From assembly GCA_041649135.1 (NCBI GenBank), contig JBAZNQ010000001.1, forward strand, positions 361,983-425,982: a stretch of 64,000 nt of DNA, written 5' to 3'. Source of the DNA: Patescibacteria group bacterium. GTDB taxonomy: Bacteria > Patescibacteriota > Kazan-3B-28. A program made the translations under genes and the position numbers. Below, in pieces: positions 3,640-62,994 of this stretch (positions are counted from its first letter, which is position 1; every line of letters begins with the position of its first letter). The notes below the pieces were generated by a model. The model saw only the letters and a program-made list of their open reading frames with translations, was not told the DNA's origin and did not search any database.

Positions 3640-3722
3640 CATCTCTGTCATTGCGATGGCTCAAGCCCGCGGCAATCTTGGGTAGAGATTGCTTCGTCGA
3701 TGACGCTCCTCGCAATGACAGG
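3640..3722. repeat. MITE-like hairpin unit (gtcattgcga...cctcgcaatgac)
   Basis: Inverted repeat with GTCAT/ATGAC ends. Same family as 61615-61700 and 43790-43860. Confidence 0.5.
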
Positions 3723-3725
3723 TAG

Positions 3726-3838
3726 CTAACTAACCATCTCTCATCTCTCATCTCTCATCTCTCATCTCTCATCTCTCATCTCTCATCTCTCATCTCTCAT
3801 CTCTCATCTCTCATCTCTCATCTCTCATCTCTCATCTC
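3726..3838. repeat. Heptanucleotide tandem array (CTCTCAT)x~16
   Basis: Perfect 7-bp tandem repeat read directly from the sequence. It abuts the stop codon of the minus-strand ABC transporter gene. Confidence 0.95.
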
Positions 3839-5625
3839 TATTCCTCCAACATCGCCCCCTGCAAAGTGAACAATCGGCGATAATAGCCACTTTTCTTCAT
3901 CAGTTCTTCGTGAGTTCCCTGCTCGGTGATTTTTCCACCCTCTAACACAATTACCCGATTAGCTCTTTTTACCGTCGACAACCGATGAGCAATAATGATT
4001 GTCGTTTTGCCCTCGATCAATTTCCAGAGTGCTCCTTGGATCATTACCTCATTTTCTGAATCTAATGCACTAGTTGCTTCATCTAAAATCAAAATCGGAG
4101 CATCTTTCAACAACGCTCTCGCGATCGCTAATCGTTGTTTTTCTCCCCCCGATAATCTTACTCCGCGTTCACCGATCTTGGTCTTAAATTTATTTGGTAA
4201 CGACATCACAAACTTATATAAATTGGCTGCCTTGGTCGCATCAATAATGCTAGCCAAACTCGCCCGAGGACTACCGTATTTCAAGTTATATTGCAAAGTA
4301 TTATTTAACGCCGCCACTTCCTGCATCACCGTCCCGATATTCTGTCGCAATGAATTCTGTGTTACCCGACTGATGTCCTGACCATCAATTAGTACCCTGC
4401 CTTTGTCCGGATCATATAGTCGCAGCAGTAGCTTTGTTAGTGTTGATTTACCTACTCCCGATGGCCCGACGATCGCCACCACTTCGTGAGGAGTAATGGC
4501 CAAATTAAAGTTTTTGAATACCACTCGCTCACCCTTTTGCCGCTTGCTACTACGATACGTAAAATGAACTTTTTCGAACTTAATTGCCCCATCCTTAACT
4601 TTTAACGGTTTAGCATCCGTAGCATCATCTACTGTCGGTTTGATATCCCAAATTCTAAATAATCTCCCAATTGACACAAACCCTACCTGCAATTGATCGT
4701 AGATTTGGGTTAGCCAGCCTAACGGCCCAAACACTCGATCTAGATAGGACATAAATAGAATCAAATCACCAACCGACAGTTTCCTTTGCAACACCAAATA
4801 GCCACCATAGCCATACACCCATAGATGCGCCGACGTTGTCACCATATCTCTCACAATCCCAATCCCCCGAACTACCCGCTCCTGTCGTTTCCGAATTTCC
4901 AAACCACGGTCATATACCGAGCCCATCCTTTTAGCCTCATAATCCTGTCGACTAAATTCTTTTATCAACTGATAGTGGAACAAATTCTCCATAAAAATCT
5001 TTCCGCTCCGCTCCATCGTATTCCGATATCTTTTCTCCCAAAAACGTTTTATCTTAGCTCGCCAAATCGACAGTCCAATATAAATCGGTGCAGCGATCAT
5101 TAACCCCAACGACATTTTAAAATCGAACTTCATCAGCACAACCAACGCAACCACAAACGTAAATATGATTGGCAATATTTCAACTATCAAGTTGCGAGTA
5201 ATTCCAAACATTTCGTTTACCCCAGCACTAATCCGCTCCCGTAGTGCCCCCGGCGATGTTTTATCAAAAAAAGACACCGATAATGTTTGAAGCTTCTCAA
5301 ATGATTTTAGAGAAAAAAAATAAAAAGACTGTGAGCCAGCTATTGTCTGCATATAAGACTCTAGCGCGCTCATTAACTCATTCACAAACCACACCACCGC
5401 GAACATTCCCACTAACCACATCAACACCGCCACCGGTTCAGTCGGCTGAATTATCCGGTCAAACACCGCACTCAATTTCTGGGTAGTTAAGAAATTAACT
5501 ACCTCTCGATAAATCCACGGAGCCACCAACGACAACCCAGCCCCCGCCAATGCTAGCGCCGTGATTAACAACAAAGCCGGATACATCGGCTTCATTTCTA
5601 TTAATAATCGTTTAAGTCCCTTCAC
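3838..5625 (-). CDS. ABC exporter, fused permease and ATPase (MsbA/ABCB-like)
   Basis: N-terminal TM domain; Walker A GPSGVGKST; ABC signature LSGGEKQRLAIARA; Walker B ILILDEAT. Confidence 0.85.
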   Translation of the reverse strand: MKGLKRLLIEMKPMYPALLLITALALAGAGLSLVAPWIYREVVNFLTTQKLSAVFDRIIQPTEPVAVLMWLVGMFAVVWFVNELMSALESYMQTIAGSQSFYFFSLKSFEKLQTLSVSFFDKTSPGALRERISAGVNEMFGITRNLIVEILPIIFTFVVALVVLMKFDFKMSLGLMIAAPIYIGLSIWRAKIKRFWEKRYRNTMERSGKIFMENLFHYQLIKEFSRQDYEAKRMGSVYDRGLEIRKRQERVVRGIGIVRDMVTTSAHLWVYGYGGYLVLQRKLSVGDLILFMSYLDRVFGPLGWLTQIYDQLQVGFVSIGRLFRIWDIKPTVDDATDAKPLKVKDGAIKFEKVHFTYRSSKRQKGERVVFKNFNLAITPHEVVAIVGPSGVGKSTLTKLLLRLYDPDKGRVLIDGQDISRVTQNSLRQNIGTVMQEVAALNNTLQYNLKYGSPRASLASIIDATKAANLYKFVMSLPNKFKTKIGERGVRLSGGEKQRLAIARALLKDAPILILDEATSALDSENEVMIQGALWKLIEGKTTIIIAHRLSTVKRANRVIVLEGGKITEQGTHEELMKKSGYYRRLFTLQGAMLEE

Positions 5626-6412: not shown

Positions 6413-6546
6413 CGCACACCTCCATCAAGACTACAAGATGCCTCCACCTTATCAGAACTCTTCCATCAGTCAACCCCATCCTCATTCATGTCGTTGCGGA
6501 AGTTCCGAGACACCGAGGGACGACCAAACAGTTTCCTAAACCGTGA

Positions 6547-6645
6547 TTCACCATTCACCATTCACCATTCACTATTCACTATTCACTATTCACTATTCAC
6601 TATTCACTATTCACTATTCACTATTCACTATTCACTATTCACTAT
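6547..6645. repeat. Heptanucleotide tandem array (CACCATT)3(CACTATT)~11
   Basis: Read directly from the sequence. It abuts and overlaps the stop codon of minus-strand tgt. Confidence 0.95.
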
Positions 6646-7718
6646 CTCATGTACTCTCCAATGTATTCCCCCAGCCGCCCTTGGATGATCGCTTCACGCG
6701 CACCTCTGACTAATTCGTAATTATGATGCCAGTTGTGCACCATCAGCCCGCGAATCGCTTCGCGGTCTTTGGCTTTAAACTTTCGACGCAATTCCGCTCG
6801 GGAAATCCCTGACCGACAGGTCGGACACTGACAGCTCTCATCCAACACCCGCTCATCATTCTCAAATTGAGCGTTTTTGATGTCGTAATGTTTGCCGCCA
6901 CGCATCCACACCCGTCCGTGCCGACCTTCCCGCGTTGCCGCAATTCCATCAAAAGTATCCATGCCTTCACGAATTGTCATTAAGACATCAATCGGCTTAC
7001 AAATCCCCAACATATGTCTTGGTTTATTTTCCGGTAGTCGTCTGATGCAAAACTTCACCATCTTCACCATCGCCCTTCTTGGTTCATCCCATGCCAACCC
7101 GCCAATCGCTACTGCTGGAATTCCATTGCGCAATTGTCGAGTGGCGTCCCACAGACTAATCGTTCTTGCCAATTTATTTAATCCGCCCTGTACAATGTAA
7201 TACAATTTATCATCCACAATTCCGCGGGATTGTTTGTGCCAGACCATTGTCATAATCGCCGACCAAATAAATTGAAACGGATTTTTTGCCATCGTATAAA
7301 CTGTATTGTCAAGCGGCATTATCAAATCTACTCCCGCTTTATTTGCCCATTTCACCACTTCTCGAGGGGTAATGAAAGTTTTCTTACCGTTTAAATCAAA
7401 TCCAATCCCTGCAAAACTCTGCCGTAAATGTTTCCCTAGGCTTACCATCTGAAACCCACCCGAATCAGACATTACCGGACCTTGCCATTCAATTCCATCT
7501 CGCACATCACTTTTCCCTGCTTCTCGCATCCAAAATGTATTTCGAAGCAAAATCACATCTTTGGTCGAAGTGATCTCTTCGGGCTTAAATCCCCACTTCT
7601 CAAGAGCTGTTGTGAAATTCAAAGTCACACACGGTGTCTCAATCTCTCCATGCTCTGTCCGCAAAACCCCAGCCCTCGCCTGACCATCTTTGGCCGTTAT
7701 GTCAAATGACAATCCCAC
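6642..7718 (-). CDS. tgt: Queuine tRNA-ribosyltransferase
   Basis: DSGGFQ motif and C-terminal Zn site CQCPTC...H. Confidence 0.85.
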   Translation of the reverse strand: MGLSFDITAKDGQARAGVLRTEHGEIETPCVTLNFTTALEKWGFKPEEITSTKDVILLRNTFWMREAGKSDVRDGIEWQGPVMSDSGGFQMVSLGKHLRQSFAGIGFDLNGKKTFITPREVVKWANKAGVDLIMPLDNTVYTMAKNPFQFIWSAIMTMVWHKQSRGIVDDKLYYIVQGGLNKLARTISLWDATRQLRNGIPAVAIGGLAWDEPRRAMVKMVKFCIRRLPENKPRHMLGICKPIDVLMTIREGMDTFDGIAATREGRHGRVWMRGGKHYDIKNAQFENDERVLDESCQCPTCRSGISRAELRRKFKAKDREAIRGLMVHNWHHNYELVRGAREAIIQGRLGEYIGEYMR

Positions 7719-7901: not shown

Positions 7902-8423
7902 CTATTGAAGTTCAACCTTTGCCCCGGCTTCTTCAAGTTTCTTCTTGATCTCTTCAGCATCAGCCTTCTTCACGTTTTCTTTCACCATCTTTGGAGCTGC
8001 TTCCACCAAATCTTTGGCTTCCTTCAATCCAAGTTCTGTGACTTCGCGAACAGCCTTAATCACGTTAATCTTGTTAGCACCGGCACTAACTAAGTTAACA
8101 TTATATTCCGTCTTTTCTTCAGCTGCAGGACCAGCGGCGGCACCACCAGCGGCGGCAACGGCAACTGGAGCAGCAGAAACACCAAACTTGTCTTCCAACA
8201 CTTTGACCAGTTCAGCCAATTCGAGCACGGTCATTTCGCTGACCATATCCAAAACTTTCTTGGCGTTACCGGACAACTTGCTCGCATCGACCTTCTTTTC
8301 CTCTTTGGCTGGTTCAGCCTTCACTTCTTCCACTTTTGGCTCCTCTACAGCAGCCGCCTCAACGGTCGCTTCCGCAACTTCTGGGGTCTGCTCTTCTGGA
8401 GTCGTATTTTGTTCGTCTGCCAT
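7902..8423 (-). CDS. rplL: Ribosomal protein L7/L12 with ~45-aa acidic N-terminal extension
   Basis: C-terminal domain ...[24 protein letters not shown]... matches L7/L12. Strong RBS (aaggag) before the ATG at 8423 supports the extended start. Confidence 0.85.
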
Positions 8424-8478: not shown

Positions 8479-9003
8479 CTATTTACTCGCTACCGCCTTT
8501 ATCACGTTATAAAACGACTGTAAATTGTAATTTATTCCGTACACGAAGTTTGCAATTGGTGCGTTCATACTTCCCACAACTCTGCCCATCAACTCTTCGT
8601 AAGATGGCAACATGGCCAATTGCATGATCATATTGGCTGGCACAATTTTCCCATCAATAATTCCTAAAGCAATGTGTACTCTGTCATCACTTTTTTTGGC
8701 AAACTCATACGCTAATTTTGAAACACTCACTTCATCAGCGTTACCCCAAACCAATCCGTAACTTTTACCAGTTTTATTTAAACTCAAGTCACCGTCGATG
8801 TCCGCCTGTTTGGCCGCGATCTGCACCAAAGTTGGCTTAACCACGGTATATTTCAAACCCTTAGCTCGCGCGGCTTTGCGAAAACTATCCAAATCCACCA
8901 TCGTGAGCTTATTGAAGTCAGTCACTACACTATTAGTGCTTTGCTTCAAAGCCTGTGTCAGCTCTTCAATAACTCCCGCTTTTTGTACCTTTGTCTTTGG
9001 CAT
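8479..9003 (-). CDS. rplJ: Ribosomal protein L10
   Basis: L10-like sequence immediately upstream of rplL. Confidence 0.8.
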   Translation of the reverse strand: MPKTKVQKAGVIEELTQALKQSTNSVVTDFNKLTMVDLDSFRKAARAKGLKYTVVKPTLVQIAAKQADIDGDLSLNKTGKSYGLVWGNADEVSVSKLAYEFAKKSDDRVHIALGIIDGKIVPANMIMQLAMLPSYEELMGRVVGSMNAPIANFVYGINYNLQSFYNVIKAVASK

Positions 9004-9351: not shown

Positions 9352-10155
9352 ATGATCAGAATCGCCAAGCCCGAGGTATTTTTAGTCGGTCAAACCGTCA
9401 TCAATGTCCCAGGCCTTACTGCCTATCTAGCCAAGACTGGCAATCTTGAGTTTCTCGAAACCATCGCCGAAGCCAGAGCCGAAGGGCTAGGAGATATGGA
9501 GGTTCTTTCCAGTTTCTTCGCCAAGCTCTGTTACCGATCGTTAACCTCCGGTAAGAACGACAACGTCAGCAAGATGCGGTCTATCAGAGACAACATCATC
9601 GGTACCATCGAATCTGGTCACGGCTCTGTCTTCGAACATGCCGTACTCAACTTTGTGCTTAGCGATGTCTCGCGAGTACTAACACACGAGCTCGTTCGTC
9701 ATCGAGTTAGTGTTGCCTACTCGCAAGAATCTGGCCGTTACTGCCGATTGAGTCCAACCAACACCGGCATCTACATACCGCCAGAGATTGCTGGCAACCC
9801 CGAAGCAGAAGTTCTTTTCGTGAATGCTGCCGAGCAAGCACTAGTCACCGTTGCGCAACTCTATGATGCCTTTGGCATTGATGAGTTCAATTTCCATACC
9901 AAGAAACAACTGACTTCAGCAATTCGGCGCATTGCTCCGACCGGCATTGCTAACGAGATTGGATTCTCCGTCAACCTGCGCGCCGTGCGACACATCATTA
10001 CGATGCGCACCAATCGCGGAGCCGAACGGGAAATCCGACTTGTTTTCGGTCAACTGGCCAACATCGTGAAAGACATCTGTCCGCTCCTCTTCCACGGTGG
10101 CGAGTGCGTTGATGTCGACGGACTGCCAGAGTGGACATTCCCCAAGCACCTTTAG
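9352..10155 (+). CDS. thyX: FAD-dependent thymidylate synthase ThyX
   Basis: ThyX signature RHRx7S (LVRHRVSVAYSQESGRY). RBS ggagg before the ATG. Confidence 0.8.
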   Translation: MIRIAKPEVFLVGQTVINVPGLTAYLAKTGNLEFLETIAEARAEGLGDMEVLSSFFAKLCYRSLTSGKNDNVSKMRSIRDNIIGTIESGHGSVFEHAVLNFVLSDVSRVLTHELVRHRVSVAYSQESGRYCRLSPTNTGIYIPPEIAGNPEAEVLFVNAAEQALVTVAQLYDAFGIDEFNFHTKKQLTSAIRRIAPTGIANEIGFSVNLRAVRHIITMRTNRGAEREIRLVFGQLANIVKDICPLLFHGGECVDVDGLPEWTFPKHL

Positions 10156-10170
10156 CCGTCAAACATCAAA

Positions 10171-10200
10171 TAAGCCCCGACCAAATGGTCGGGGCTTTTC
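10171..10200 (+). terminator. Intrinsic terminator after thyX (gccccgaccaaatggtcggggc + TTTT)
   Basis: Hairpin plus T-run. Confidence 0.7.
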
Positions 10201-10250
10201 TCGTAGAACGTTCGACGTCTGAAGAACGTTTGACGTTCCCAATGAGCAAC

Positions 10251-10862
10251 CTACTCCGCCTTCGGTAGAATCTCTTCCACCGCTTTGCGAATTCGTTGAT
10301 GCACCTCCTCTGGCGAACCAGTTGCGTCAATCTCGACCGCTTCTGGAAATTCATCAACCAGTTTGGTGTACTCCAGTTGCAGCCGATCCTGGAATGACAA
10401 GTTCTTGTCGTGCTCGTCGAGTGCGTCTCGTCCGGCTTCCATTCTGGTCCGTGCCGATTCGGTATCGAGATTCAGCCACAGCATTAAGTCCGGCACTGGA
10501 AACTTGCTGTTGGCTTGACGCAGTTGCTCGACATCCGCACCACCCGCCGCACCATAGGCATACGTTGAGTAGTAATATCTGTCACAGACCACTACTACTC
10601 CGGGTTGTCCCAAATGCTCTACCAGCTCGGGCAGATGTTCAGCCCGATCCTGGGTATAGAGCATCTGGAAATCGGTCGCCGGCAACATCGGTTCTTGCTT
10701 GTCTAACATCCGCCGAATCCGCCGACCATATTCGCTATCGGTTGGTTCACGCGTCTGCCAAACATCAAAACCGTGGCTCTTCAGCTGCTCCACTAACAGA
10801 GATACTTGCGTACCTTTGCCCACTCCATCGGGACCTTCTATGACAATAAACACTGATAACAC
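10251..10862 (-). CDS. tmk: Thymidylate kinase
   Basis: P-loop IVIEGPDGVGKGTQ; DRYYYSTYAYG (Tmk DRY-type motif). Confidence 0.8.
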   Translation of the reverse strand: MLSVFIVIEGPDGVGKGTQVSLLVEQLKSHGFDVWQTREPTDSEYGRRIRRMLDKQEPMLPATDFQMLYTQDRAEHLPELVEHLGQPGVVVVCDRYYYSTYAYGAAGGADVEQLRQANSKFPVPDLMLWLNLDTESARTRMEAGRDALDEHDKNLSFQDRLQLEYTKLVDEFPEAVEIDATGSPEEVHQRIRKAVEEILPKAE

Positions 10863-10889
10863 CTCCCATTTTTATTCCACCTTCAAGGT

Positions 10890-10962
10890 TCTAGCCTGTC
10901 GACCCGAACCCCCCACGCGTCTTAGCTTTCACATTACCGACTTCTCTAAAGTCAGCCCCCTA
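10890..10962 (-). repeat. In-frame duplicate of the dut 3' end (encodes GADFREVGNVKAKTRGGFGSTG*) directly behind the dcd-like TAG stop
   Basis: Near-identical nucleotide copy of 12168-12240. Codon-by-codon reading shows it is in the dcd frame after the TAG. Confidence 0.8.
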
Positions 10963-12117
10963 GTCTGACCATGAAGCAAAAAACTTCGCCAGTTTAATCG
11001 TCGACTGGTTGCCGTAATTACTACCCTTCCCCGCTACTCCGTACACCATTTTTGGTTCAGCATTTAAATGTTCAAACTTAAATCTTGCAATTAGTTGACC
11101 ATGTGACAACCGTACTGGTACAGCTGCTTTGTTGCGCACCTCACATACTGCCGTGTTGCCACCCACTTCACCGTGCACACCATACCCAAAACCGCGATCA
11201 AAAAACCCAGCATAGTGACTTCTAAGTTCTCCATGAACGTCTGCGAAAGAAACCATCTCTGCACACACTCCGACTGGTATTCGCACTTTCTCGATCGTTG
11301 TCAACAACGCAAACTCATCTGGTTCTAACCACAACCCCCCATGGTCATCAAGCTGTTTCACCCTGAAATAAGTTCTCGGTTCAATAGTACCCTTATCGGT
11401 TAGTGATATTGGCTTACGAGTTCCAGTAACAACCAAATTACTCGGATCACTTTTTAAATCAACCCTTACCATTAAGTGATCATCATCGATCACTGGTTCA
11501 AGTCCAGGATTTTCGATCAAGCCATATTGACCATGCAACTCGCGCAATGTTTGATTATCAAAAAATTTGCGCTCGCCCCGAAATATCCGCAGTTGCGTCA
11601 ATGATACTCCGCTCTGCAATTTGACATAAAAACTTTGCGGCACCAAAATTGCGAACAATTTGCCTTTATATCCGCGTGGCACAACATTAAACTGTGTCCC
11701 ACCTTCTACTAACACAATACAGTGCAAGTCAATTCTTCCTGCCGACGATTTGGGGTTAATATACCCCCATTCATCCGGCTGAAAATCCAGCCTCACCCCC
11801 AATTCAACCAAATAAGTTCCACTTGTAAGCGTCCGATTACGTGCGCACTCTTCTTCCGAATATGAATTATAGCCGTACTCTTCTATAAACGCCTGCGAAT
11901 TAAACCCGTCTTTCAAATCTGGTATCCCTGCCACCTCCCACATCCTGTTCCCCGTCCGTAAATCCAAAGAACACGGTTGGATATCGCTCGACTCAACCAT
12001 GCCCGTAATCCGACCTTGCTCCAGTAGTTCACGCAACTGCCAATCTACCAACACCGCTCCTTGCTGCGTTACGAGTGGTTCTTGTAAACCAATACCAACC
12101 AGTTGGGTTGATTCCAT
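10960..12117 (-). CDS. dCTP deaminase-like protein with tandem dUTPase/Dcd fold (long Dcd family)
   Basis: CSLDLRTG-type motif in the first half and a dUTPase-like motif in the second half; ~385 aa. Confidence 0.5.
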   Translation of the reverse strand: MESTQLVGIGLQEPLVTQQGAVLVDWQLRELLEQGRITGMVESSDIQPCSLDLRTGNRMWEVAGIPDLKDGFNSQAFIEEYGYNSYSEEECARNRTLTSGTYLVELGVRLDFQPDEWGYINPKSSAGRIDLHCIVLVEGGTQFNVVPRGYKGKLFAILVPQSFYVKLQSGVSLTQLRIFRGERKFFDNQTLRELHGQYGLIENPGLEPVIDDDHLMVRVDLKSDPSNLVVTGTRKPISLTDKGTIEPRTYFRVKQLDDHGGLWLEPDEFALLTTIEKVRIPVGVCAEMVSFADVHGELRSHYAGFFDRGFGYGVHGEVGGNTAVCEVRNKAAVPVRLSHGQLIARFKFEHLNAEPKMVYGVAGKGSNYGNQSTIKLAKFFASWSD

Positions 12118-12167
12118 AAAGCCCTCCCTCCCCCATTTAAAACCTGCTTTATTCTACCACACCGCAC

Positions 12168-12608
12168 TTATCCAGTACTGCCGAACCCCCCACGCGTCTT
12201 AGCTCTTACATTACCGACTTCTCTAAAGTCCGCTCTCCCTATCCTAACAAATGTTCCTTGAGCAAATCTTTCGCCCTTTTCAATGGTCAAAATCTGATCA
12301 CCCGTATTTAATACCTGCACCAGCACCTCGTCTTCGGCTCCGCAATAATCACTATCAATAATTCCCACCCCATGCGGCATCACTAATCCCATTTTTTTCT
12401 TCGGTGTCCCAGACCTCAAAGTCACCATTAAATAAAATCCTTTAGGTGTCTCCACAATTAAATTGGAGGGGACTCGCACCAGCTCTTTCGGCTGGATTTT
12501 GATATCCTCCCGAGCATAAATATCAAACGCTGCCGCACCACTTGTCTGGTACTCCGGCATCGGCAAACTCGAATCTACTCGTTTGATATTCACTCTCATA
12601 CCGGTCAT
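12168..12608 (-). CDS. dut: dUTP diphosphatase
   Basis: dUTPase motifs AGFD, RSG, GIIDSDYCGAED, RGGFGSTG. The start is probably MTGMRV at 12608, which has an RBS gggaggg. The ORF track extends a further 46 aa upstream; that extension is not supported. Confidence 0.8.
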   Translation of the reverse strand: MTGMRVNIKRVDSSLPMPEYQTSGAAAFDIYAREDIKIQPKELVRVPSNLIVETPKGFYLMVTLRSGTPKKKMGLVMPHGVGIIDSDYCGAEDEVLVQVLNTGDQILTIEKGERFAQGTFVRIGRADFREVGNVRAKTRGGFGSTG

Positions 12609-12654: not shown

Positions 12655-12870
12655 TTGAATTGAGATAAATTGCCGTCGCGGGGGCATGTCTGACGAGAAC
12701 TTTGTTCGAGGAGTTTGCCCTTTAAGCGGTAAGACAATTTATCCAATGAACAGACCGAGCGAACACGGCCACGGCTTTGGTTACTTTCGCCAAGACGAAA
12801 GTAACGCCGGATCGAACGCCGGCGCAGCGTTCGCTAAACCAAACAGCCGGCTTTCGCCGGCTGCCTAAGA
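12655..12870. repeat. Repeat family B copy 1 (~220 nt, internal hairpins, terminator-like 3' stem-loop)
   Basis: The ~70-nt core (ggccacggctttggttactttcgccaagacgaaagtaacgccggatcgaacgccggcgcagcgttcg) is identical to 54050-54120. The flanks are ~70% identical. The terminal hairpins differ in sequence but both form. Confidence 0.8.
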
Positions 12871-12946: not shown

Positions 12947-13765
12947 TTAAATTGACGATAAGTCAATTTTGATCCCCGGGCCCATCGTCGTCGCCATACT
13001 CATCCGTTTGATGTAAGCACCCTTCGATGTCGCTGGCTTAGCCGCTTGGATCGCACTAACGATCGCTTTGAAGTTTGTCATCAAGTCCTCCGACTTAAAT
13101 GAAACTTTGCCGAATCCAAGATGAATGATCGCATCTTTATCGAGCCGGAATTCTACTTTTCCTTTTTTGAATTCTTCAACCGCTTTGGCTGGATCAGCCG
13201 TTACAGTTCCCGACTTGGGATTTGGCATCAAGCCTTTTGTCCCTAGTGTCTGACCAAGTTTACCAACTTGTGCCATTACCGACGGAGTAGCAATTACTAA
13301 GTCAAAATCCAACCAACCGTCTTGAATTTTTTTGATCATTTCTTCCAATCCAACATGATCAGCTCCCGCCGCTTTGGCTTTTTTGGCTTCCGCTTCCTCG
13401 GCCAAAACTAAAATCTTGCGGGTTTTGCCGGTACCAGCTGGCATTGAAACTGTTCCGCGAATATTTTGCTCCGGCTTTTTTGGGTCCAACCCCATTTGGA
13501 TATGTAATTCCACCGTCGCATCAAATTTACTTGGGGACGTTTCCTGTGCCAGTTGGATCGCTTCAGTCGCCGAATACATTTTGTTCTTATCTACCTTCGG
13601 CAAAACAGCCAGATATTTTTTACCTCGCCCAAACTTCCGCACTTTTGACTTTGGTTGCTTGGCAACCACTCCGACCTTAGCGTCGGAGCTACTCTGCTTT
13701 TTCACCGCCTTCTTAGCGGTCACCTTCTTTTTCTGCTGTTCAGCAGAACCCTTTGGGTCTTCCAT
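12947..13765 (-). CDS. rplA: Ribosomal protein L1 with Lys-rich N-terminal extension
   Basis: L1 core (GTVSMPAGTGK...GLMPNPKSGTVT...). Start MEDPKG at 13765 has an RBS aggag. There is a ~45-aa K-rich extension. Confidence 0.85.
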   Translation of the reverse strand: MEDPKGSAEQQKKKVTAKKAVKKQSSSDAKVGVVAKQPKSKVRKFGRGKKYLAVLPKVDKNKMYSATEAIQLAQETSPSKFDATVELHIQMGLDPKKPEQNIRGTVSMPAGTGKTRKILVLAEEAEAKKAKAAGADHVGLEEMIKKIQDGWLDFDLVIATPSVMAQVGKLGQTLGTKGLMPNPKSGTVTADPAKAVEEFKKGKVEFRLDKDAIIHLGFGKVSFKSEDLMTNFKAIVSAIQAAKPATSKGAYIKRMSMATTMGPGIKIDLSSI

Positions 13766-13920
13766 AATTTTTACTCCTGCGTGGTTCAAACGCATTGCCG
13801 ACTAGCAACACTCCCACCTCAAAGTTATATATTGTGTCTAATTTTTACTGAAAGGAAAGAGAGCAGTAAGCTTGCCCCGACTTGTCGGGGTGGGCTTTGC
13901 CCATGAGCGTCGAGAGGAAA

Positions 13921-14358
13921 CTACTCGTGTCCTCTCGAGAGAGAATCTCTCTTGATCCAATTCCAATGGAACCACCAGAGCAACCAACCAATTACAACTG
14001 CTGGAATACTCTCGGTCGCTCTCCGACGAAATTCATTATCCTGTTGAATTGTAAACTGTTCTTTTTGCTGTTCTAGCGTCAAAGCCGTTACGGATTTATC
14101 AGACCCTTCTATGTCAGATGACATCCGATTGTAATCATATTGCACAAACTGCTGTGGCCAGACATACCGATTCATCGTTGCACCAATTCCGTTCACAACT
14201 CCGAAGATAAAAAAGAACAGACCCACTAACGCGAATAAATATAAATAAATTGTCCGAATCAAACCGTGTGCGTTTGCCATCCTATTACCCCCTGTGCTTA
14301 TGGCTGATATAGCAAAAATAACTATTAGTAGGAGAAAACCTCCCGCGGCTAGTATCAT
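13921..14358 (-). CDS. Hypothetical integral membrane protein (sits between rplK and rplA)
   Basis: Multiple hydrophobic segments; no motif. Confidence 0.4.
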   Translation of the reverse strand: MILAAGGFLLLIVIFAISAISTGGNRMANAHGLIRTIYLYLFALVGLFFFIFGVVNGIGATMNRYVWPQQFVQYDYNRMSSDIEGSDKSVTALTLEQQKEQFTIQQDNEFRRRATESIPAVVIGWLLWWFHWNWIKRDSLSRGHE

Positions 14359-14534: not shown

Positions 14535-14960
14535 CTAGTCTGCGATTTTTACTCCCATATTCCGAGCCGTCCCAGCAATAATTTTCATCGCCGCTTCTAC
14601 GTCTAATGCGTTCATGTCTGGCATCTTCTTTTCAGCGATTTCCCGTAACTGGGCACGAGTAAGCGTCCCAACAGTCTCTTTGTTCGAAACTTTAGCACCC
14701 TTGTCGATCCCCAACGCCTTCTTGATAAATTCCGACGCTGGCGGTTGCTTCAAGATAAACTCAAACGACCGATCTTCGTAGATCGTAATCAGGGCTGGGA
14801 TCACATTCCCCATCAGGGATTTAGTCGCTTCATTATACTGATTACAAAAATCCATGATCGCAATGCCATGTGGCCCTAAAGCTGTACCCACCGGAGGGGC
14901 GGGGTTCGCTTTACCAGCTTCAAGCTGAAGCTTCACAACTGCTTTTACCTTCTTTGCCAT
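14535..14960 (-). CDS. rplK: Ribosomal protein L11
   Basis: L11 N-terminus [32 protein letters not shown]. Confidence 0.9.
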
Positions 14961-15531: not shown

Positions 15532-15642
15532 GATTTTTACATGGCCGCGCAAAGGGCATTCGCCCCGCCCGGCTCACACAAAACACCTATATTTCAATAT
15601 TTCTCGTGGCTGCGCCACGCGATGAGCGCAGCGAATTTTGCG

Positions 15643-15718
15643 TGGAGCCGTTGACCGGGATTGAACCGGTGACCCCCTCCTTACCATGGAGGTGCTCTAC
15701 CAGCTGAGCTACAACGGC
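15643..15718 (-). tRNA. tRNA-Thr (anticodon GGT)
   Basis: Hand-folded cloverleaf; anticodon loop ATGGTAA; T-loop GGTTCAATCC; CCA end. Confidence 0.7.
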
Positions 15719-17230: not shown

Positions 17231-18136
17231 CTACAGCGCCAGCAACAATGTATCGATCGCTCCTTTCAAATTCACATTATCCCGAATCTGCTTTACTGCT
17301 ATCTGCATCCGTTCTAGTCCTTTGACCGCTTTTTCATTCGGCAACATTTCCCTCCAAACCATCATCCCAGCCCGAATAAACTCCACCGCTTCATCGCGAT
17401 CTTTCAATTTTTCCGACCAACCAAATTTTGTTTCAACATCAGCCGTCTGCACTTTTTGCCAGAATGTCATCATTTCCTTATAGTCCACCCACCAAATCGA
17501 CATTTCTTCCCAATCTTTTACTTGCCCAGCACTCCCACCCGAAGCCGCAATTTGTTCGTCAGTAGCCTGTGGCACAATTTTTTTAATTTCTGCATCTGTC
17601 AGCGGACCGAATCTCACTACTTGTGCTCGTGACACGATCGTTGGCAACAACGCCTCTTCATTCGGCACGATCAAAATGATCACCGTGTCATCTCTCGGCT
17701 CTTCCAAAGTTTTCAACAACGCATTTTGAGCCGCATCATTTAAATTTTGGGCATCATCAATAATTGCCACTTTATATTTCGATACCATTGGCGACATCAT
17801 CAACCGTCGTGTCAGTTCCCGCATTGCCCCAATCCATTCCCTGGTCTTTTCTTTACTGACCTCATCTAAAATCTGCGAATACCAAAACGTATCCGGATGA
17901 TTTTGTGTTGCTGGTGGCTGGTGGCTAGTGGCTAGTGGCTGACTATGCAAATATTGTGCCAACGCTTTCGCCGCCGTCCTTCTTCCCACACCCTTCGGCC
18001 CAGCAAATATCAACGCTTGCGGCAAATTTCCCGACTCCAAAGTCGCCAACAACCATTTCTTGGCTGTTGCCTGTCCCTCCAAATCAGAAAACACCTCCTT
18101 CACTTCCATAATCCGATTATACCAGCCCATACCCAC
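17231..18136 (-). CDS. holB: DNA polymerase III delta-prime subunit
   Basis: AAA+-like GPKGVGRRTAA; LLKTLEEP; IVSRAQVVRF sensor motif. Contains an intragenic (GGCTAGT)-type heptamer repeat at ~17905-17940. The true start may be the ATG at 18109. Confidence 0.6.
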   Translation of the reverse strand: MGMGWYNRIMEVKEVFSDLEGQATAKKWLLATLESGNLPQALIFAGPKGVGRRTAAKALAQYLHSQPLATSHQPPATQNHPDTFWYSQILDEVSKEKTREWIGAMRELTRRLMMSPMVSKYKVAIIDDAQNLNDAAQNALLKTLEEPRDDTVIILIVPNEEALLPTIVSRAQVVRFGPLTDAEIKKIVPQATDEQIAASGGSAGQVKDWEEMSIWWVDYKEMMTFWQKVQTADVETKFGWSEKLKDRDEAVEFIRAGMMVWREMLPNEKAVKGLERMQIAVKQIRDNVNLKGAIDTLLLAL

Positions 18137-18149
18137 TTACCCCCTTCCC

Positions 18150-18420
18150 CCTCGAATCAAACTCGTTATCGCAAAGCAAAATCCGGCTAGTTTAGCGCGA
18201 GCCCTGAACCCCGACTACCCGAGAATATCAACCAGTCGGGGTGAATCGGCTCAAACATAAGCCAGACAGCCAAGATTTTGCTATTGCGATAGAGTTTGGT
18301 AAGCGGAGGTGAGTTTTTCTGTCAGTTTTTGCTCATTCAAAAACTGACCGCCCAGCGCGCGGGGGCGTAGACCGCGCATAAAAGAAGACCGCCCTTTCGG
18401 GCGGTTCTTGAAAACAAAGT
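18150..18420. ncRNA. Repeat family A copy 1: candidate structured RNA/element (~250 nt), with a minus-strand terminator hairpin at 18385-18415
   Basis: Three copies (with 18975-19250 and 43560-43785) showing compensatory substitutions in at least four helices. Confidence 0.5.
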
Positions 18421-18974: not shown

Positions 18975-19250
18975 TCTTTTCCCCCTTGAGTAAAGTTTGT
19001 CCTCGCCAAGCAAAATCCTGCCAGTCTAGCGCGAGCCCTGAACCCCGAGCCCCCGATAATATTGGTATCGGGGTGAATCGGCTCGAATATAAGCCAGACG
19101 ACCGAGATTTTGTTATGGCGACAAAACTTTATGAGCGGGGGTGAGTTTTTCTGTCAGTTTTTGCTCATTCAAAAACTGACCGCCCAGCGCACGGGAGCGT
19201 AGACCGCGCATAAAACAAAACAGCCGCCTTACGGCGGCTGCCTAAAAACA
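18975..19250. ncRNA. Repeat family A copy 2
   Basis: See copy 1. Terminator hairpin cagccgccttacggcggctg lies just after the clpP stop. Confidence 0.5.
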
Positions 19251-20811: not shown

Positions 20812-21224
20812 ACCTCCTTTGGTTTGTTAAGTTACCACTTTCGTTTTACGCCAAAACCCGCTCCCAGTCAATCAAAAACCCCGTCTGGGTAAATCTAGCC
20901 AATTTATCCAATTTATTCCCCGCCCGCCGACGGGCAGGCAATCTAACCAAAGAAATTGTTGAGATTGTCATGGACCCTTCGTAGCTTCAGCGAAGTAGGG
21001 GCGAAGATTGTTTAGATTGTCGCAGACCCTTTGTCTTGTCCACCATAGCTTCTTGACCGTCGTAGCCTTGGCATAGTCAATTGACCAGAATCGTATAATA
21101 AATAACCAGCCCGTCATCCTGAATTTATTTCAGGATCTAGACAAGAACAAAAACATTTCTGTTCCTGTCCCATTGGTTAGATTGGGGAAATTGGTGAGAT
21201 TACTTCGTCGCTAGTTCTGCTAAT

Positions 21225-21437
21225 CTATTGATCGCCTTTTCGTAGCTCTGCCAGTAGCAGAGCGAAGACCACCCCGTAGCCTTGCTCGAAGGGTGGCGTT
21301 CTACCGCGTGGCTATTTCAGCAAGTTTGTCGATGGCTTTTCTCGAACCAAGCATCCGCTTCAACCGTTCTTTCCTCGCAGATTACTCGAAGAGTAATTGG
21401 AGATCCTTCCGAAGCCTTGGCGTAGGAGGACTACCTT
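21225..21437. repeat. Two to three degenerate tandem copies of the tig 3' end (pseudo-fragments)
   Basis: 21318-21378 encodes ...KERLKRMLGSRKAIDKLAEIATR*, compared with the tig C-terminus RERLQRMLGSRKAIDRLVEMVTQ*. A further, more decayed copy lies at ~21240-21300. Confidence 0.7.
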
Positions 21438-22724
21438 TTACTGTGTCACCATCTCAACCAACCTATCAATAGCCTTACGCGAACCGAGCATACGTTGCAG
21501 TCGCTCACGACCATTACTATTTTTCCCATATTCCTTTTCAATATTTTCCCCATCCTGCGGATAGATTTCCTTCAACTTTTTCATTTCCGCTTCCACATCC
21601 TCCTCTGTTGCTTCGATCTTCTCCGCATCGCGAAACGCCTCCAACGCCAATCCGATCCGAACTCTCTGCTCGGCTTGTTCCCGCCATTGGCTCTTCAAAC
21701 CCGCTTCATTGACATTCGCTTTTTTCAAATAGTCCTCAAAACTCATACCGGAATGTTCCGCCTGATGTTTCAAATCATGCACCATACTGTCTAATTCCTG
21801 CTCTATCATTTCCTCCGGCAAATCGATCTTCGCGACCTTCACCAATTCCAATAGCGCATTCTCCCGCACACCCTCTTCCGCTTTCTTAGTCGCTTCCTCT
21901 TCCAAATATTTTTTAATATCCGCCTTCAACACTTCCAGATTTTCCTGCCCCGCATGCTTCTTGGCAAACTCATCATTGATTTCCGGATAATTCACCGCCT
22001 TCACCAAATTCATTTTCACCTTGAACATGGCTTTCTTACCCGCTAAATCTTTATTGTGATAATCGGCTGGGAAAGTTACTTCCACATCTTTCTCTTCGCC
22101 CTTCCCCAGTCCCACTAATCCTTCTTCAAATCCGGGAATAAAAACTTTATCTCCCAAAATCAACGGATGCTTCTTGGAAGCACCGCCTTCAAATGGCTTG
22201 CCGTCTACAAATCCATCAAAATCAATTTCCGCCCAATCACCCATCTGCGCGACCCGTTCCACTTCCTGAAACTCCACCGCTTTCTTTTGCAAACTTTTCA
22301 ACACCCCTTCCACCTGCTCATCCCCTACGCTCTCAACTCTCTTCTCTAGTTTTATCTTCGAATAATCTCCCAACACCACTTCTGGCAATACCGCCACCTC
22401 CGCCGTAAATTCCAGCGGCTCGTTTAAATTCCCTTTTTCCACAGAAATTTTCGGGAATGCGATCGGCCGCAAATTCTCCTGCCGAACGGCAGAAGGATAA
22501 AACTGCTCCACCGCCAGCTCGATCGCTTCGCTAATCACGCGGGCTTCGCCCGCTTTTGCGATCACCACATCCCTCGGCGCCTTCCCCTCCCTAAATCCGT
22601 CTATCTTAATCGTGGTAGAAACTTTTTCTGCCGCCTTATCCAAAACCCCCTGCCACTCCGTCATCTCCAGAGCAATGGCTAATTTAACATGATTCTTCTC
22701 CCCGTTAGATTTAGTGATTTTCAT
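21438..22724 (-). CDS. tig: Trigger factor
   Basis: Trigger-factor domain order and motifs; FKBP-like PPIase region FDGFVDGKPFEGG; classic tig...clpP neighbourhood. Confidence 0.85.
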   Translation of the reverse strand: MKITKSNGEKNHVKLAIALEMTEWQGVLDKAAEKVSTTIKIDGFREGKAPRDVVIAKAGEARVISEAIELAVEQFYPSAVRQENLRPIAFPKISVEKGNLNEPLEFTAEVAVLPEVVLGDYSKIKLEKRVESVGDEQVEGVLKSLQKKAVEFQEVERVAQMGDWAEIDFDGFVDGKPFEGGASKKHPLILGDKVFIPGFEEGLVGLGKGEEKDVEVTFPADYHNKDLAGKKAMFKVKMNLVKAVNYPEINDEFAKKHAGQENLEVLKADIKKYLEEEATKKAEEGVRENALLELVKVAKIDLPEEMIEQELDSMVHDLKHQAEHSGMSFEDYLKKANVNEAGLKSQWREQAEQRVRIGLALEAFRDAEKIEATEEDVEAEMKKLKEIYPQDGENIEKEYGKNSNGRERLQRMLGSRKAIDRLVEMVTQ

Positions 22725-41660: not shown

Positions 41661-41748
41661 AAATTACCCACATGAACTGTCATTCTGGTAAGCCCAGCCC
41701 CTAAGGAGTCCCGACGTATCCAGAATGACAACTGCTAAGGAAGAGTTC

Positions 41749-41795
41749 TATTGGCTATTGGCTATTGGCTATTGGCTATTGGCTAGTGGCTAAAC
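41749..41795. repeat. Heptanucleotide tandem array (TGGCTAT)x~6
   Basis: Read directly from the sequence. It abuts the htrA stop codon. Confidence 0.9.
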
Positions 41796-41798
41796 TCT

Positions 41799-43559: not shown

Positions 43560-43785
43560 CGGAAAATAAAATCAAGCCAAATCTGGCGCAAGCCTTGAGT
43601 CCTGATAACCCGTTTAATATTTACGTCAGGACGAATCGGCTTGGATATAAGCCAGATGACTGGATTTTATTATTGCGATAGAGATTCGTGAGCAGGGGTG
43701 AGTTTTCCTGTTCGCTTTTGCTCACTCAAAAGCGAACCGCCCAGCGCGCGGTGGCGTAGACCGCGCATAAAATTAATAAGATTCT
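43560..43785. ncRNA. Repeat family A copy 3
   Basis: See 18150-18420. This is the most divergent copy and the source of the covariation evidence. Confidence 0.5.
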
Positions 43786-53944: not shown

Positions 53945-54165
53945 TGAATTGAGCTAAATTGGCGCAGGCGTAGGCATGTCTGACGAGGTGGCAACCGAGA
54001 AGTTTGCCGATAGCGAAGAAAGCCAATTTAGCCAATGAATAGACCCGTAGTTGCGGGCCACGGCTTTGGTTACTTTCGCCAAGACGAAAGTAACGCCGGA
54101 TCGAACGCCGGCGCAGCGTTCGAAACTACAAACACCGCCTTTCAGCGGTGCTCATATTTTCTAAC
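53945..54165. repeat. Repeat family B copy 2 (directly downstream of the 16S 3' end)
   Basis: See 12655-12870. Confidence 0.8.
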
Positions 54166-55199: not shown

Positions 55200-55624
55200 T
55201 GTACAAGACCCGAGAACGTATTCACCGCAACATGGCTGATTTGCGGTTACTAGCGATTCCGGCTTCATGGGGTCGAGTTGCAGACCCCAATCCGAACTGG
55301 GGGTAGTTTTGCTGGGTTTGGCTCCACCTTACGGCTTAGCGTCCCATTGTGACCTACCCATTGTAGCACGTGTGTCGCCCAAGATATAAAGGCCACGCTG
55401 ATTTGACGTCATCCCCACCTTCCTCCGTGTTAACCACGGCAGTCTCGCCAGACACTTGTAACTGGCAATAGGGGTTGCGCTCGTTATCCGACTTAACGGT
55501 ACATTTCACAACACGAGCTGACGACAACCGTGCAGCACCTGTCTCTGCTGTCTTGCGAGGGGCTCTATTTCTAGTGCCTTTCAGCAGGATGTCAAATCTT
55601 GGTGAGGTGCCCGGCTTACCATCC

Positions 55625-55679
<55 letters not shown>

Positions 55680-55780
55680 TAGTCTTGCGACCGTACTCCC
55701 CAGGCGGGATACTTAACGCGTTAGCTTCGTCACTGGGGGGGTCGAAGCCACCAATGACTAGTATCCATCGTTTAGGGCGT

Positions 55781-55814
<34 letters not shown>

Positions 55815-56202: not shown

Positions 56203-56247
<45 letters not shown>

Positions 56248-62925: not shown

Positions 62926-62994
62926 CCAGAGAAACACCACCAGCTACCCCAATTGGTGAGATTGGTGAGATTGTTCAGATTGGATAGATTATTT

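What the first reader, a model, noticed from the sequence alone, without database searches (positions are those of the whole stretch)
10890..10965. dcd-like gene ends in TAG, followed in-frame by a duplicate of dUTPase C-terminal motif V
Codon-by-codon, the dcd-like ORF ends ...ASWSD-TAG and continues in the same frame as GADFREVGNVKAKTRGGFGSTG-TAG. That stretch is a near-identical nucleotide copy of the 3' end of dut 1.2 kb away (…GRADFREVGNVRAKTRGGFGSTG*). Motif V (RGxxGFGSTG) is the flexible C-terminal arm that closes the dUTPase active site. The Dcd/dUTPase-fold protein therefore has a ready-made catalytic arm one stop codon away. Three explanations fit. It could be a recent nonsense mutation in a Dcd-Dut chimera. 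It could be programmed TAG readthrough. Or it could be another instance of this genome's habit of copying gene 3' ends into the downstream spacer (see the tig finding).
Basis: seen in the sequence. Interest (0 to 1): 0.55.

Follow-up and report, generated by a model that had tools for sequence, protein, structure and literature searches.

The report
Leftover dUTPase gene end after dcd
The dUTPase "arm" sequence that follows the dcd stop codon is the old end of the neighbouring dUTPase gene, stranded when dcd was inserted between dut and tmk, so it is a recombination scar and not a hidden catalytic extension.

Summary
On the minus strand the 385-aa two-domain dCTP-deaminase-like gene (10960-12117) ends ...ASWSD-TAG. 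It continues in frame as GADFREVGNVKAKTRGGFGSTG-TAG (10891-10959). That stretch is a 53-nt, 94%-identical copy of the dut 3' end 1277 nt upstream.

The interpretation mostly fails. Dcd family profiles and 120 homologues end where this protein ends, and none carries motif V. The closest orthologues stop at the same place (TGA, or TAG-TAG). TAG is an ordinary stop here (24 of 55 long ORFs, including rplJ, rplL and rplK).

In at least nine related Patescibacteria loci, including the Kazan genome, dut sits directly upstream of tmk and dcd is elsewhere or absent. The last 15 nt of the copy plus the spacer leading to tmk match the dut end and dut-tmk spacer of relative L013 at 23 of 27 positions. 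The present dut end matches at only 10 of 27. In relative L011 the same segment has decayed through indels and lost its stop.

The copy is therefore the ancestral dut terminus, displaced when dcd was inserted and dut received a replacement tail. Two points are unresolved: the exact recombination route, and why 53 nt stay so similar to the working tail. A similar series of tail relics follows tig.

The parts
12168..12608 (-). dut, a trimeric dUTPase of 146 aa with a TAA stop; intact, with its own motif V
   Evidence: Pfam PF00692 3-129 of 129; NCBIfam TIGR00576 103 bits against a cut-off of 102.55. 84.5% aa identity to the dut of L013.
12168..12236 (-). Present (working) dut tail: 22 codons RADFREVGNVRAKTRGGFGSTG plus TAA. 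Upstream copy of the direct repeat.
   Evidence: Its last 15 nt (GGC AGT ACT GGA TAA) resemble the ends in Kazan and L015 and not the L013-type end.
12118..12167 (-). dut-dcd spacer (50 nt) with a G-rich ribosome-binding region; contains TGGTAGAATAAA
   Evidence: Its similarity to spacers in the relatives is only marginal.
10960..12117 (-). Two-domain dCTP-deaminase-like gene (DCD_N + DCD_C), 385 aa, complete, with a native TAG stop at 10960-10962
   Evidence: Pfam PF06559, PF22569 and PF22769 over the full length. 1647 homologues at E<=1e-20, closest 83% and 59% identical. The C-terminus aligns with the family's end.
10891..10959 (-). Relic of the ancestral dut 3' end: 22 codons GADFREVGNVKAKTRGGFGSTG plus TAG, in frame with dcd but beyond its stop. 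Downstream copy of the direct repeat.
   Evidence: 53-nt core 94% identical to the working tail. Last 15 nt plus 12 nt of spacer match L013's dut end and spacer at 23 of 27, against 10 of 27 for the working tail. Homologous but decayed in L011.
10854..10890 (-). Ancestral dut-tmk spacer with a Shine-Dalgarno sequence (GGGAGG), still attached to the relic
   Evidence: Aligns with the dut-to-tmk spacers of L013, L011 and L012 (AACCTTGAAC...GGAGGTGT...GTGTTTATTGT).
10251..10853 (-). tmk (thymidylate kinase, 200 aa from the GTG at 10853), the original downstream neighbour of dut
   Evidence: Pfam PF02223. dut lies directly upstream of tmk in Kazan L020, L013/14, L015/16, L040, L079/80/84, L176/177, L180, L181 and L012.
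9352..10155 (+). thyX, convergent with tmk; part of the same thymidylate-synthesis island between rplA and rplJ
   Evidence: Pfam PF02511. A bidirectional terminator-like hairpin lies at 10172-10197.

Best explanation
The 69-nt stretch after dcd is a non-coding relic: the original 3' end of dut (motif V codons plus stop), still joined to its original spacer and downstream gene tmk.

In the ancestral layout, kept by most relatives, the order is rplK-rplA-dut-tmk-thyX(-)-rplJ-rplL, and dcd lies elsewhere in the genome. In this lineage dcd was inserted at the start of the dut tail. A dUTPase without motif V is nearly inactive, so only a product in which dut received a replacement tail could persist. 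The result is dut(body + new tail)-spacer-dcd-[old tail]-old spacer-tmk, that is, a direct repeat of the dut tail on either side of dcd.

Dcd terminates at its native TAG and the relic is untranslated intercistronic RNA in a dut-dcd-tmk operon. Being in frame with dcd is a one-in-three coincidence. The lack of internal stops follows from the relic's closeness to a working coding sequence.

Shown: the ancestral gene order, the orthology of the relic's 3' part and spacer, the native Dcd terminus, decay in a second lineage, and normal use of TAG.

Inferred: the route. Candidates are one-sided homologous recombination with an illegitimate joint (HFIR-like) or single-crossover integration of a circularised dut-tail-plus-dcd fragment. 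Later gene conversion, or a recent date for the event, is also inferred, to account for the 94% identity of the 53-nt core.
For: Empty site. dut directly precedes tmk in the Kazan genome L020, whose dcd is about 180 kb away (L003), and in L013/14, L015/16, L040, L079/80/84, L176/177, L180, L181 and L012.

Orthology. The relic's GGGTCGACAGGCTAG plus AACCTTGAAGGT matches L013's dut end plus spacer at 23 of 27; the present dut end matches at 10 of 27. The whole relic-to-tmk spacer aligns with L013, L011 and L012.

Mosaic pattern. Differences between the two copies cluster in the last 15 nt (7 of 15) and are sparse in the core (2 of 48), Fisher p=0.0003. All are synonymous, including AGT to TCG for Ser, as expected for two working dut alleles that diverged under selection before the event.

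Decay elsewhere. L011 has dcd-end (KFFAPWSE, TAG-TAG), about 100 nt, then tmk. Its spacer is homologous to the relic plus spacer (z=8.3, 0 of 300 shuffles) but carries a 5-nt deletion, a 1-nt insertion and CAG in place of the stop.

Dcd is complete without it. TAG is a normal stop. Three independent assemblies are identical. Motif V is required for dUTPase activity (PMC5519681). HFIR is an established route for such joints (PMC3240628).
Against: The 53-nt core is 94% identical to the working tail. At the three differing sites the relic agrees with the nearest outgroup tail (L176), so the relic shows no changes of its own. Yet dcd is only 83% identical to its nearest orthologue and the L011 relic is heavily decayed. 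An old neutral relic should have drifted more. This needs either recent gene conversion, a recent re-creation of the arrangement by recombination with an unsampled donor, or some constraint, and the data cannot tell these apart.

The left junction (TAG GGG GCT GAC against ATA GGG AGA GCG GAC) is not a clean microhomology joint.

The post-dcd spacer of L001 shows no significant similarity to the relic (z=0.9), so a single shared insertion event is supported only by L011.

All relatives are metagenomic contigs, several of them short.
Confidence: 0.85

Rival explanations
1. Programmed or leaky TAG readthrough adds the motif-V arm to a fraction of Dcd molecules. This would give the dUTPase-fold deaminase a P-loop-like lid and perhaps dUTPase-type hydrolysis.
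For: The relic is in frame and has no internal stop. It keeps a perfect RGGFGSTG. It shows no private substitutions in the 53-nt core relative to the outgroup L176.
Against: TAG ends 24 of 55 long ORFs, including rplJ, rplL and rplK. No tRNA-CUA occurs among the six tRNAs in the window. Folding of the region gives z=-0.66. No Dcd homologue of 120 carries motif V. Orthologues stop at the same residue with TGA or a double TAG. The equivalent segment in L011 is frame-broken. Being in frame has a prior of 1 in 3. The intact ORF is explained by similarity to the working tail.
Confidence: 0.03
2. A recent nonsense mutation split a formerly fused Dcd-motif V (Dcd-Dut chimera) protein.
For: Only the in-frame arrangement.
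Against: The family profiles end at residues 380-382 of 385. The C-termini of 117 of 120 homologues lie a few residues after LAKFF. The closest orthologues end ...APWSE with a stop. The downstream part of the segment is orthologous to a dut end and dut-tmk spacer.
Confidence: 0.01
3. The segment is a secondary copy of the present dut tail, pasted downstream of dcd by a local duplication or copying process, and not the original terminus.
For: 53 nt at 94% identity to the present dut tail. tig is followed by two further versions of its own tail, which suggests a recurrent process.
Against: The last 15 nt and the following spacer match the orthologous dut end and spacer of L013 (23 of 27), not the present dut end (10 of 27). 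The segment lies exactly where a dut tail lies relative to tmk in at least nine relatives. At the three core differences it carries the outgroup state. A partial version of this idea, gene conversion of the relic's core by the working tail, may still be true and forms part of the best explanation.
Confidence: 0.08
4. The segment is retained because it carries a cis-acting signal for tmk, such as an RNA hairpin spanning the old stop codon or an internal promoter.
For: AG(A/T)ACCTT(G/A)AAC just after the old stop is conserved in the window, L013, L011 and L012. GGGGTTC can pair with GAACCTT.
Against: The consensus hairpin is weak: -6.4 kcal/mol, covariation term +0.88, four sequences. The single-sequence fold gives z=-0.66. 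No promoter or terminator consensus hit falls in 10850-10960. Such a signal would constrain about 25 nt, not the whole 69 nt.
Confidence: 0.05
5. Assembly artefact that joins two strain variants of the dut end.
For: The source is a metagenome-assembled genome, and the two copies look like allelic variants.
Against: Three assemblies from three samples and three pipelines are identical over the whole region. The two copies are separated by a complete 1.16-kb gene, and each has a distinct flank orthologous to flanks in other genomes.
Confidence: 0.01

Closest known systems
Duplicated 3' gene ends flanking integrated DNA (attL/attR-type repeats of genomic islands and prophages that insert into the 3' end of a gene and restore it)
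   Same: A direct repeat of the target gene's 3' end brackets the inserted DNA. The target gene stays intact because the incoming DNA supplies a replacement end. The displaced original end is left as a non-coding remnant on the far side.
   Different: There is no integrase, no att core and no mobile-element gene. The insert is a single housekeeping gene of the same pathway. The repeat is a mosaic: a 53-nt near-identical core followed by a 15-nt end that is divergent but synonymous.
Homology-facilitated illegitimate recombination during natural transformation (PMC3240628, abstract seen; the original descriptions in Acinetobacter and pneumococcus are cited from my own knowledge)
   Same: One end of the incoming DNA is anchored by homology (here within dut) and the other is joined illegitimately. 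This can add foreign genes next to a resident gene and leave truncated resident fragments. The synonymous divergence between the new and old tail ends fits a donor allele replacing a resident allele.
   Different: The process was not observed here, only inferred from the product. The classical outcome is a deletion of recipient DNA, not a retained duplicate. Competence of this organism is not shown; a comEC-like gene was seen only in relatives.
[quoted passage not shown]
   Same: It has a dUTPase-superfamily fold acting on dCTP and belongs to the same pathway towards dUMP.
   Different: Those enzymes are single-domain and, to my knowledge (not checked here), achieve both activities without the dUTPase P-loop-like motif V. 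The protein here is the two-domain PF06559 type, is complete without the extension, and is encoded next to a separate, intact dut.
Programmed stop-codon readthrough extensions
   Same: An in-frame open extension follows a stop codon and encodes a recognisable functional peptide.
   Different: The extension is not conserved in orthologues, the stop codon is the genome's commonest, no stimulatory structure is present, and an ordinary historical origin for the sequence is demonstrated.

Membership tests
Two-domain 2'-deoxycytidine 5'-triphosphate deaminase (Pfam PF06559 DCD_N + PF22569 DCD_C; NCBIfam NF005734) | Full-length match to both Pfam domains above the gathering scores | tested here: met
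   DCD_N 88.8 bits (cut-off 21.4), residues 22-182. DCD_C 136.7 bits (cut-off 22), residues 188-380, profile 2-192 of 192.
Two-domain 2'-deoxycytidine 5'-triphosphate deaminase (Pfam PF06559 DCD_N + PF22569 DCD_C; NCBIfam NF005734) | NCBIfam equivalog score cut-off (283 bits) | tested here: not met
   232.5 bits over profile 7-367 of 368. It is a full-length but divergent (Patescibacteria) member, so the exact activity is inferred and not certified.
Two-domain 2'-deoxycytidine 5'-triphosphate deaminase (Pfam PF06559 DCD_N + PF22569 DCD_C; NCBIfam NF005734) | C-terminus a few residues after the conserved L-A-K-F-F, with no motif V | tested here: met
   117 of 120 homologues carry the L[AGS]K[FYHQ]F motif, most with only 2-8 residues after it; the window protein ends 5 after. 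No homologue has RGxxGFG in its last 60 residues.
Trimeric dUTPase (PF00692; TIGR00576), applied to the neighbouring dut and to the copied segment | Five conserved motifs, including the C-terminal motif V RGxxGFGS(T/S)G, attached to a dUTPase core | tested here: met
   For dut: PF00692 3-129 of 129 and TIGR00576 103 bits against 102.55. The copied segment has motif V only, with no core and a stop codon in front, so it is a gene fragment and not a member.
Bifunctional Dcd:Dut (single-domain dCTP deaminase type, TIGR02274) | Match to the single-domain dCTP deaminase model above its cut-off | tested here: not met
   55.6 bits against a cut-off of 92.8, covering the C-terminal domain only. Enzymatic bifunctionality cannot be tested with these tools.
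Programmed stop-codon readthrough or stop-codon reassignment | Extension conserved in orthologues, or a sense codon at the stop position | tested here: not met
   L001: TGA followed by unrelated sequence. L011: TAG-TAG followed by a frame-broken remnant.
Programmed stop-codon readthrough or stop-codon reassignment | The stop codon is rare or absent as a terminator in the genome, or a cognate suppressor tRNA is present | tested here: not met
   TAG ends 24 of 55 long ORFs. No CUA-anticodon tRNA among the six in the window. The rest of the genome could not be scanned.
Programmed stop-codon readthrough or stop-codon reassignment | Stimulatory RNA structure downstream of the stop | tested here: not met
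   MFE -31.4 kcal/mol against a shuffle mean of -29.3, z=-0.66.
Insertion scar: target 3'-end duplication flanking inserted DNA | An empty site (the two flanking genes adjacent) in related genomes | tested here: met
   dut-tmk adjacency in at least nine related loci, including the Kazan genome.
Insertion scar: target 3'-end duplication flanking inserted DNA | The distal repeat copy is the positional orthologue of the uninterrupted sequence | tested here: met
   23 of 27 identity to L013's dut end plus spacer, and the spacer is alignable in four lineages.
Insertion scar: target 3'-end duplication flanking inserted DNA | Site-specific recombinase or mobile-element genes associated with the insert | tested here: not met
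   The insert is the dcd ORF plus a 50-nt spacer only. The feature is therefore not an integrative element, and a general recombination route is inferred.

The most novel reading that the evidence does not exclude
The relic is not inert. Low-level readthrough of the dcd TAG would append a working dUTPase motif-V arm to a two-domain dCTP deaminase, creating a new bifunctional enzyme form. Selection for this would explain why the 22 codons remain intact and unchanged while the equivalent remnant in a sister lineage has decayed.

A more probable but less dramatic reading concerns the serial tail relics after dut and tig. They may record a distinctive, recurrent mode of one-sided allele replacement in these reduced Patescibacteria genomes. 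I put that reading at about 0.3.
Probability: 0.03. Interest if true: 0.7.

Novelty: new member of a known kind. Interest (0 to 1): 0.2.

Why it matters
As a catalytic curiosity it does not matter, because Dcd is complete without the extension. Its value is as a dated scar. It shows, base by base, how a dCTP deaminase gene was moved from another locus into a dut-tmk operon to build a contiguous dUTP/dTMP pathway cluster (dut-dcd-tmk-thyX) inside the rplKA-rplJL ribosomal cluster of a Patescibacteria genome. It also shows that the essential dUTPase arm had to be re-supplied for the event to survive. Together with the tig tail relics and the highly variable gene content of the rplA-rplJ gap in relatives, it points to frequent recombination with divergent relatives in these small genomes. 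For annotation, it is a warning not to call such in-frame remnants readthrough extensions or fusions.

Tried and rejected
(1) Stop-codon reassignment or readthrough. I counted stop usage, scanned for tRNAs and folded the region. Nothing supported it.

(2) A chimera with a nonsense mutation. I checked the profile ends, the C-termini of 120 homologues and the closest orthologue loci. Rejected.

(3) A known RNA element or promoter/terminator in the relic. Rfam at the gathering and E-value thresholds and consensus scans found nothing. A four-sequence consensus hairpin was weak.

(4) A remnant of the relic after dcd in L001. An apparent by-eye similarity did not survive a shuffle test (z=0.9).

(5) Homology of the dut-dcd spacer to the L011, L012 and L001 spacers, which would imply an older round of tail displacement. 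The results were marginal or not significant (p=0.05 to 0.55), so I make no claim.

(6) Compositional evidence for foreign origin. dcd and dut have GC 0.45-0.46, tmk and thyX 0.52-0.53, and the genome mean is 0.466 with sd 0.035. This is not decisive.

It was useless for synteny, although all hits matched the query up to about residue 380-384.

(8) A genome-wide 'habit' of 3'-end copies at the nucleotide level. Only dut stands out. At the protein level tig also does.

(9) Assembly artefact. Rejected on the basis of three identical independent assemblies.
Full report
**What is there**

All the relevant genes are on the minus strand. Running from high to low coordinates they are:

| Feature | Coordinates | Strand |
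|---|---|---|
| rplK | 14535-14960 | - |
| small DUF5671-like ORF | 13921-14358 | - |
| rplA | 12947-13795 | - |
| dut | 12168-12608 | - |
| two-domain dCTP-deaminase-like gene (dcd) | 10960-12117 | - |
| tmk | 10251-10853 | - |
| thyX | 9352-10155 | + |
| rplJ | 8479-9003 | - |
| rplL | 7902-8423 | - |

Reading on from dcd gives ...AKFFASWSD-TAG-GADFREVGNVKAKTRGGFGSTG-TAG. dut ends ...GRADFREVGNVRAKTRGGFGSTG-TAA. The repeat finder reports 10904-10956 against 12181-12233: 53 nt, 94% identical, 1277 nt apart. I compared the last 150 nt of each of 55 long ORFs with its downstream 1.6 kb. This pair scored z=33 and nothing else exceeded 4.6.

The sequence is also not an error. Contigs from three samples and three pipelines (ENA ERZ27247363, JGI 3300037067, Logan SRR8542065) are identical to the window across the region. 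The organism is a Patescibacteria MAG. Its nearest named relative is candidate division Kazan.

**Is Dcd truncated, or read through?**

- **Truncation.** No. Pfam DCD_C matches profile positions 2-192 of 192, ending at residue 380 of 385. NCBIfam PRK07559 matches 7-367 of 368, ending at residue 382. Among the 120 best homologues, 117 have the conserved L-A-K-F-F-type motif, typically followed by 2-8 residues (5 in the window protein). None has RGxxGFG in its last 60 residues.
- **Orthologue ends.** The 83%-identical orthologue (L001/L002) ends ...FFAPWSE-TGA. The sequence after it shows no significant similarity to the window's post-dcd segment. A second relative (L011) ends ...FFAPWSE-TAG-TAG.
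- **TAG usage.** TAG terminates 24 of 55 long ORFs in the window, the same count as TAA. These include rplL, rplJ and rplK.
- **Other readthrough signals.** None of the six tRNAs in the window has a CUA anticodon. The region downstream of the stop folds no better than shuffled sequence (z=-0.66). It has no Rfam, promoter or terminator hit.

**Where the sequence comes from**

Relatives show the ancestral layout. dut lies directly upstream of tmk, usually followed by a convergent thyX and then rplJ-rplL, in all of these:

- the Kazan genome (L020)
- L013/L014
- L015/L016
- L040
- L079/80/84
- L176/177
- L180
- L181

The contig L012 starts inside the dut tail and runs straight into tmk.

In the Kazan genome, and in a relative from the same sample as L013, dcd sits elsewhere, in the context comEC - metallo-beta-lactamase - dcd - RNHCP - glycosyltransferase. 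Only the window's genome, L001/L002/L029 and L011 have dcd inside the rplA-rplJ gap. dcd is therefore the newcomer between dut and tmk.

The copy after dcd occupies exactly the place a dut tail occupies relative to tmk. Its sequence confirms this:

| Sequence | Last five codons + next 12 nt | Match to L013 |
|---|---|---|
| Copy after dcd | GGG TCG ACA GGC TAG AACCTTGAAGGT | 23 of 27 |
| L013 dut end + dut-tmk spacer | GGG TCG ACT GAC TAG AACCTTGAACGC | - |
| Present dut end | GGC AGT ACT GGA TAA GTGCGGTGTGGT | 10 of 27 |

The rest of the spacer, down to the Shine-Dalgarno sequence and the tmk start, aligns with L013, L011 and L012. The copy is therefore the original dut terminus, and the tail now attached to dut is the replacement.

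**Mosaic structure and what it implies**

- **Clustering.** The differences between the two copies are strongly clustered: 7 of 15 nt in the last four codons plus stop, against 2 of 48 in the core (Fisher p=0.0003).
- **Synonymy.** All the terminal differences are synonymous, including a three-base Ser switch (AGT to TCG). That is the signature of two working dut alleles that diverged under purifying selection before one displaced the other.
- **Both end types occur naturally.** TCN-type ends occur in L013, L176 and L180. AGT-type ends occur in Kazan, L015 and L178.
- **Core differences.** The core (ADFREVGNV[R/K]AKTRGGF) resembles the working tails of L176 and L180. At the three core sites where the window's two copies differ, L176 agrees with the relic.

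**Decay elsewhere**

In L011 the roughly 100-nt segment between dcd and tmk is homologous to the window's relic plus spacer (local alignment z=8.3, no shuffle out of 300 as good). It carries a 5-nt deletion, a 1-nt insertion, scrambled GSTG codons and CAG where the stop was. In that lineage the remnant is clearly not maintained as coding sequence.

**How it most likely happened**

A dUTPase that lacks motif V is nearly inactive (PMC5519681). Any event that placed dcd upstream of the resident tail could therefore persist only if dut gained another tail. Two ordinary routes give the observed product, dut-body + tail - spacer - dcd - [resident tail] - resident spacer - tmk.

- **Route 1:** uptake of a fragment (dut 3' part - spacer - dcd) from a relative that already had dut-dcd adjacency, as L001 does. 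The fragment would be anchored by homology in dut and joined illegitimately at the start of the resident tail. This is homology-facilitated illegitimate recombination, defined in PMC3240628.
- **Route 2:** single-crossover integration of a circularised fragment of the same kind.

The identity pattern across genes fits recombination between lineages:

| Gene | Window vs L013 (% aa) | Window vs L001 (% aa) |
|---|---|---|
| dut | 84.5 | 55 |
| thyX | 86 | not present in L001 |
| rplK | 93.5 | not on the contig |
| dcd | not in this locus | 82.5 |

These steps are inferred and not shown. The in-frame position relative to dcd has a prior of one in three and needs no special explanation.

**What remains unexplained**

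The dcd insertion appears to be shared with L011, and dcd itself is only 83% identical to its nearest orthologue. An old neutral relic should have drifted, yet its 53-nt core is 94% identical to the working tail and shows no private changes.

- **Likeliest cause:** gene conversion between the two direct repeats, or a recent re-creation of the arrangement from an unsampled donor.
- **Alternative causes:** a cis-acting role for tmk, or translation of the segment, cannot be formally excluded. The candidate hairpin across the old stop is weak.

I give about 0.85 to the relic explanation overall and about 0.03 to functional readthrough.

**Context and parallels**

The rplA-rplJ gap in this clade is a variable thymidylate-synthesis island:

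- dut-tmk-thyX
- kinase - dCMP deaminase - dut-tmk-thyX (L176)
- dCMP deaminase - dut-tmk-thyX (L180)
- dut-thyA-DHFR - dCMP deaminase (L178)
- dut-dcd (L001)
- dut-dcd-tmk-thyX (the window)

It is followed by KERLKRMLGSRKAIDKLAEIATR* (about 21301-21369) and by YEKAINRLAELATK* (about 21197-21271). Between the tig tail and the first copy there are 14 synonymous-only codons, 6 non-synonymous and 3 identical. That is the same 'displaced allele tail' signature. No other gene in the window shows it at either the nucleotide or the protein level.

**Verdict**

The feature is real, correctly observed and ordinary in kind. It is a gene-end remnant marking the insertion of dcd into a dut-tmk operon. It is neither a cryptic catalytic extension nor a recoding site. 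Interest is low (0.2). Modest added value comes from the clean reconstruction of operon assembly and from the recurrence of tail relics in this genome.

Noticed in passing
window 21197-21440 (minus strand), downstream of tig (21438-22724): Two further versions of the tig C-terminal peptide follow the gene, each ending in a stop at the same relative position. They are KERLKRMLGSRKAIDKLAEIATR* at about 21301-21369 and YEKAINRLAELATK* at about 21197-21271. The tig tail and the first copy differ at 25 of 69 nt, mostly synonymously: 14 synonymous-only codons, 6 non-synonymous, 3 identical. This looks like serial displacement of allele tails.
   Followed up: partly
window 9352-12608, and loci L001, L013, L020, L176, L178, L180, L181: The gap between rplA and rplJ is a variable thymidylate-synthesis island across related Patescibacteria. 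The combinations seen are dut-tmk-thyX; kinase + dCMP deaminase + dut-tmk-thyX; dut-thyA-DHFR + dCMP deaminase; dut-dcd; and dut-dcd-tmk-thyX.
   Followed up: partly
window 12767-12845 and 54056-54134: A 79-nt repeat, 94% identical, with internal hairpins. One copy lies in the unusually long rplA-dut spacer. The other lies about 750 nt from a group II intron D1-D4 hit (54891-54974, minus), which abuts the 3' side of the 16S rRNA gene (55148-56529, minus). It may be a mobile-intron or other element fragment next to the rearranged island.
   Followed up: no
window 18145-18393, 18979-19225, 43625-43782: About 160-250-nt intergenic repeats (81-87% identical for the first two, 66% for the third), lying between short minus-strand ORFs. 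No Rfam family matched them at the gathering threshold.
   Followed up: no
window 3721-3853, 6532-6664, 17896-17940, 41747-41798, 62943-62990, 63949-63996 and others: Many intergenic tandem arrays with a 7-nt period (CATCTCT, ATTCACT/ATTCACC, GGCTGGT/GGCTATT) or a 9-nt period (GATTGGTGA-like), recurring in both orientations across the window.
   Followed up: no
window about 15600-15650 against L009 2416 onward: The JGI assembly of the same genome differs from the window by a 50-nt length change near tRNA-Thr (15643-15718). It is otherwise identical in the region studied. This is probably repeat-number variation between samples.
   Followed up: no
L012 1-117: In this relative a working dut end (SRGGFGSTG-TAG) is followed, with no gene in between, by a decayed tail-like stretch (TGGGGGCTGAATTGATAAATCAG) and then by the conserved spacer and tmk. 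The stretch is homologous to the L011 remnant (z=14). This suggests either a tail displacement without dcd or a later loss of dcd.
   Followed up: partly
L089 and L091, 2931-4426: In a more distant Patescibacteria lineage a Dcd homologue (33% identical) lies immediately upstream of dut, the opposite order. dcd-dut adjacency has therefore probably arisen more than once.
   Followed up: no
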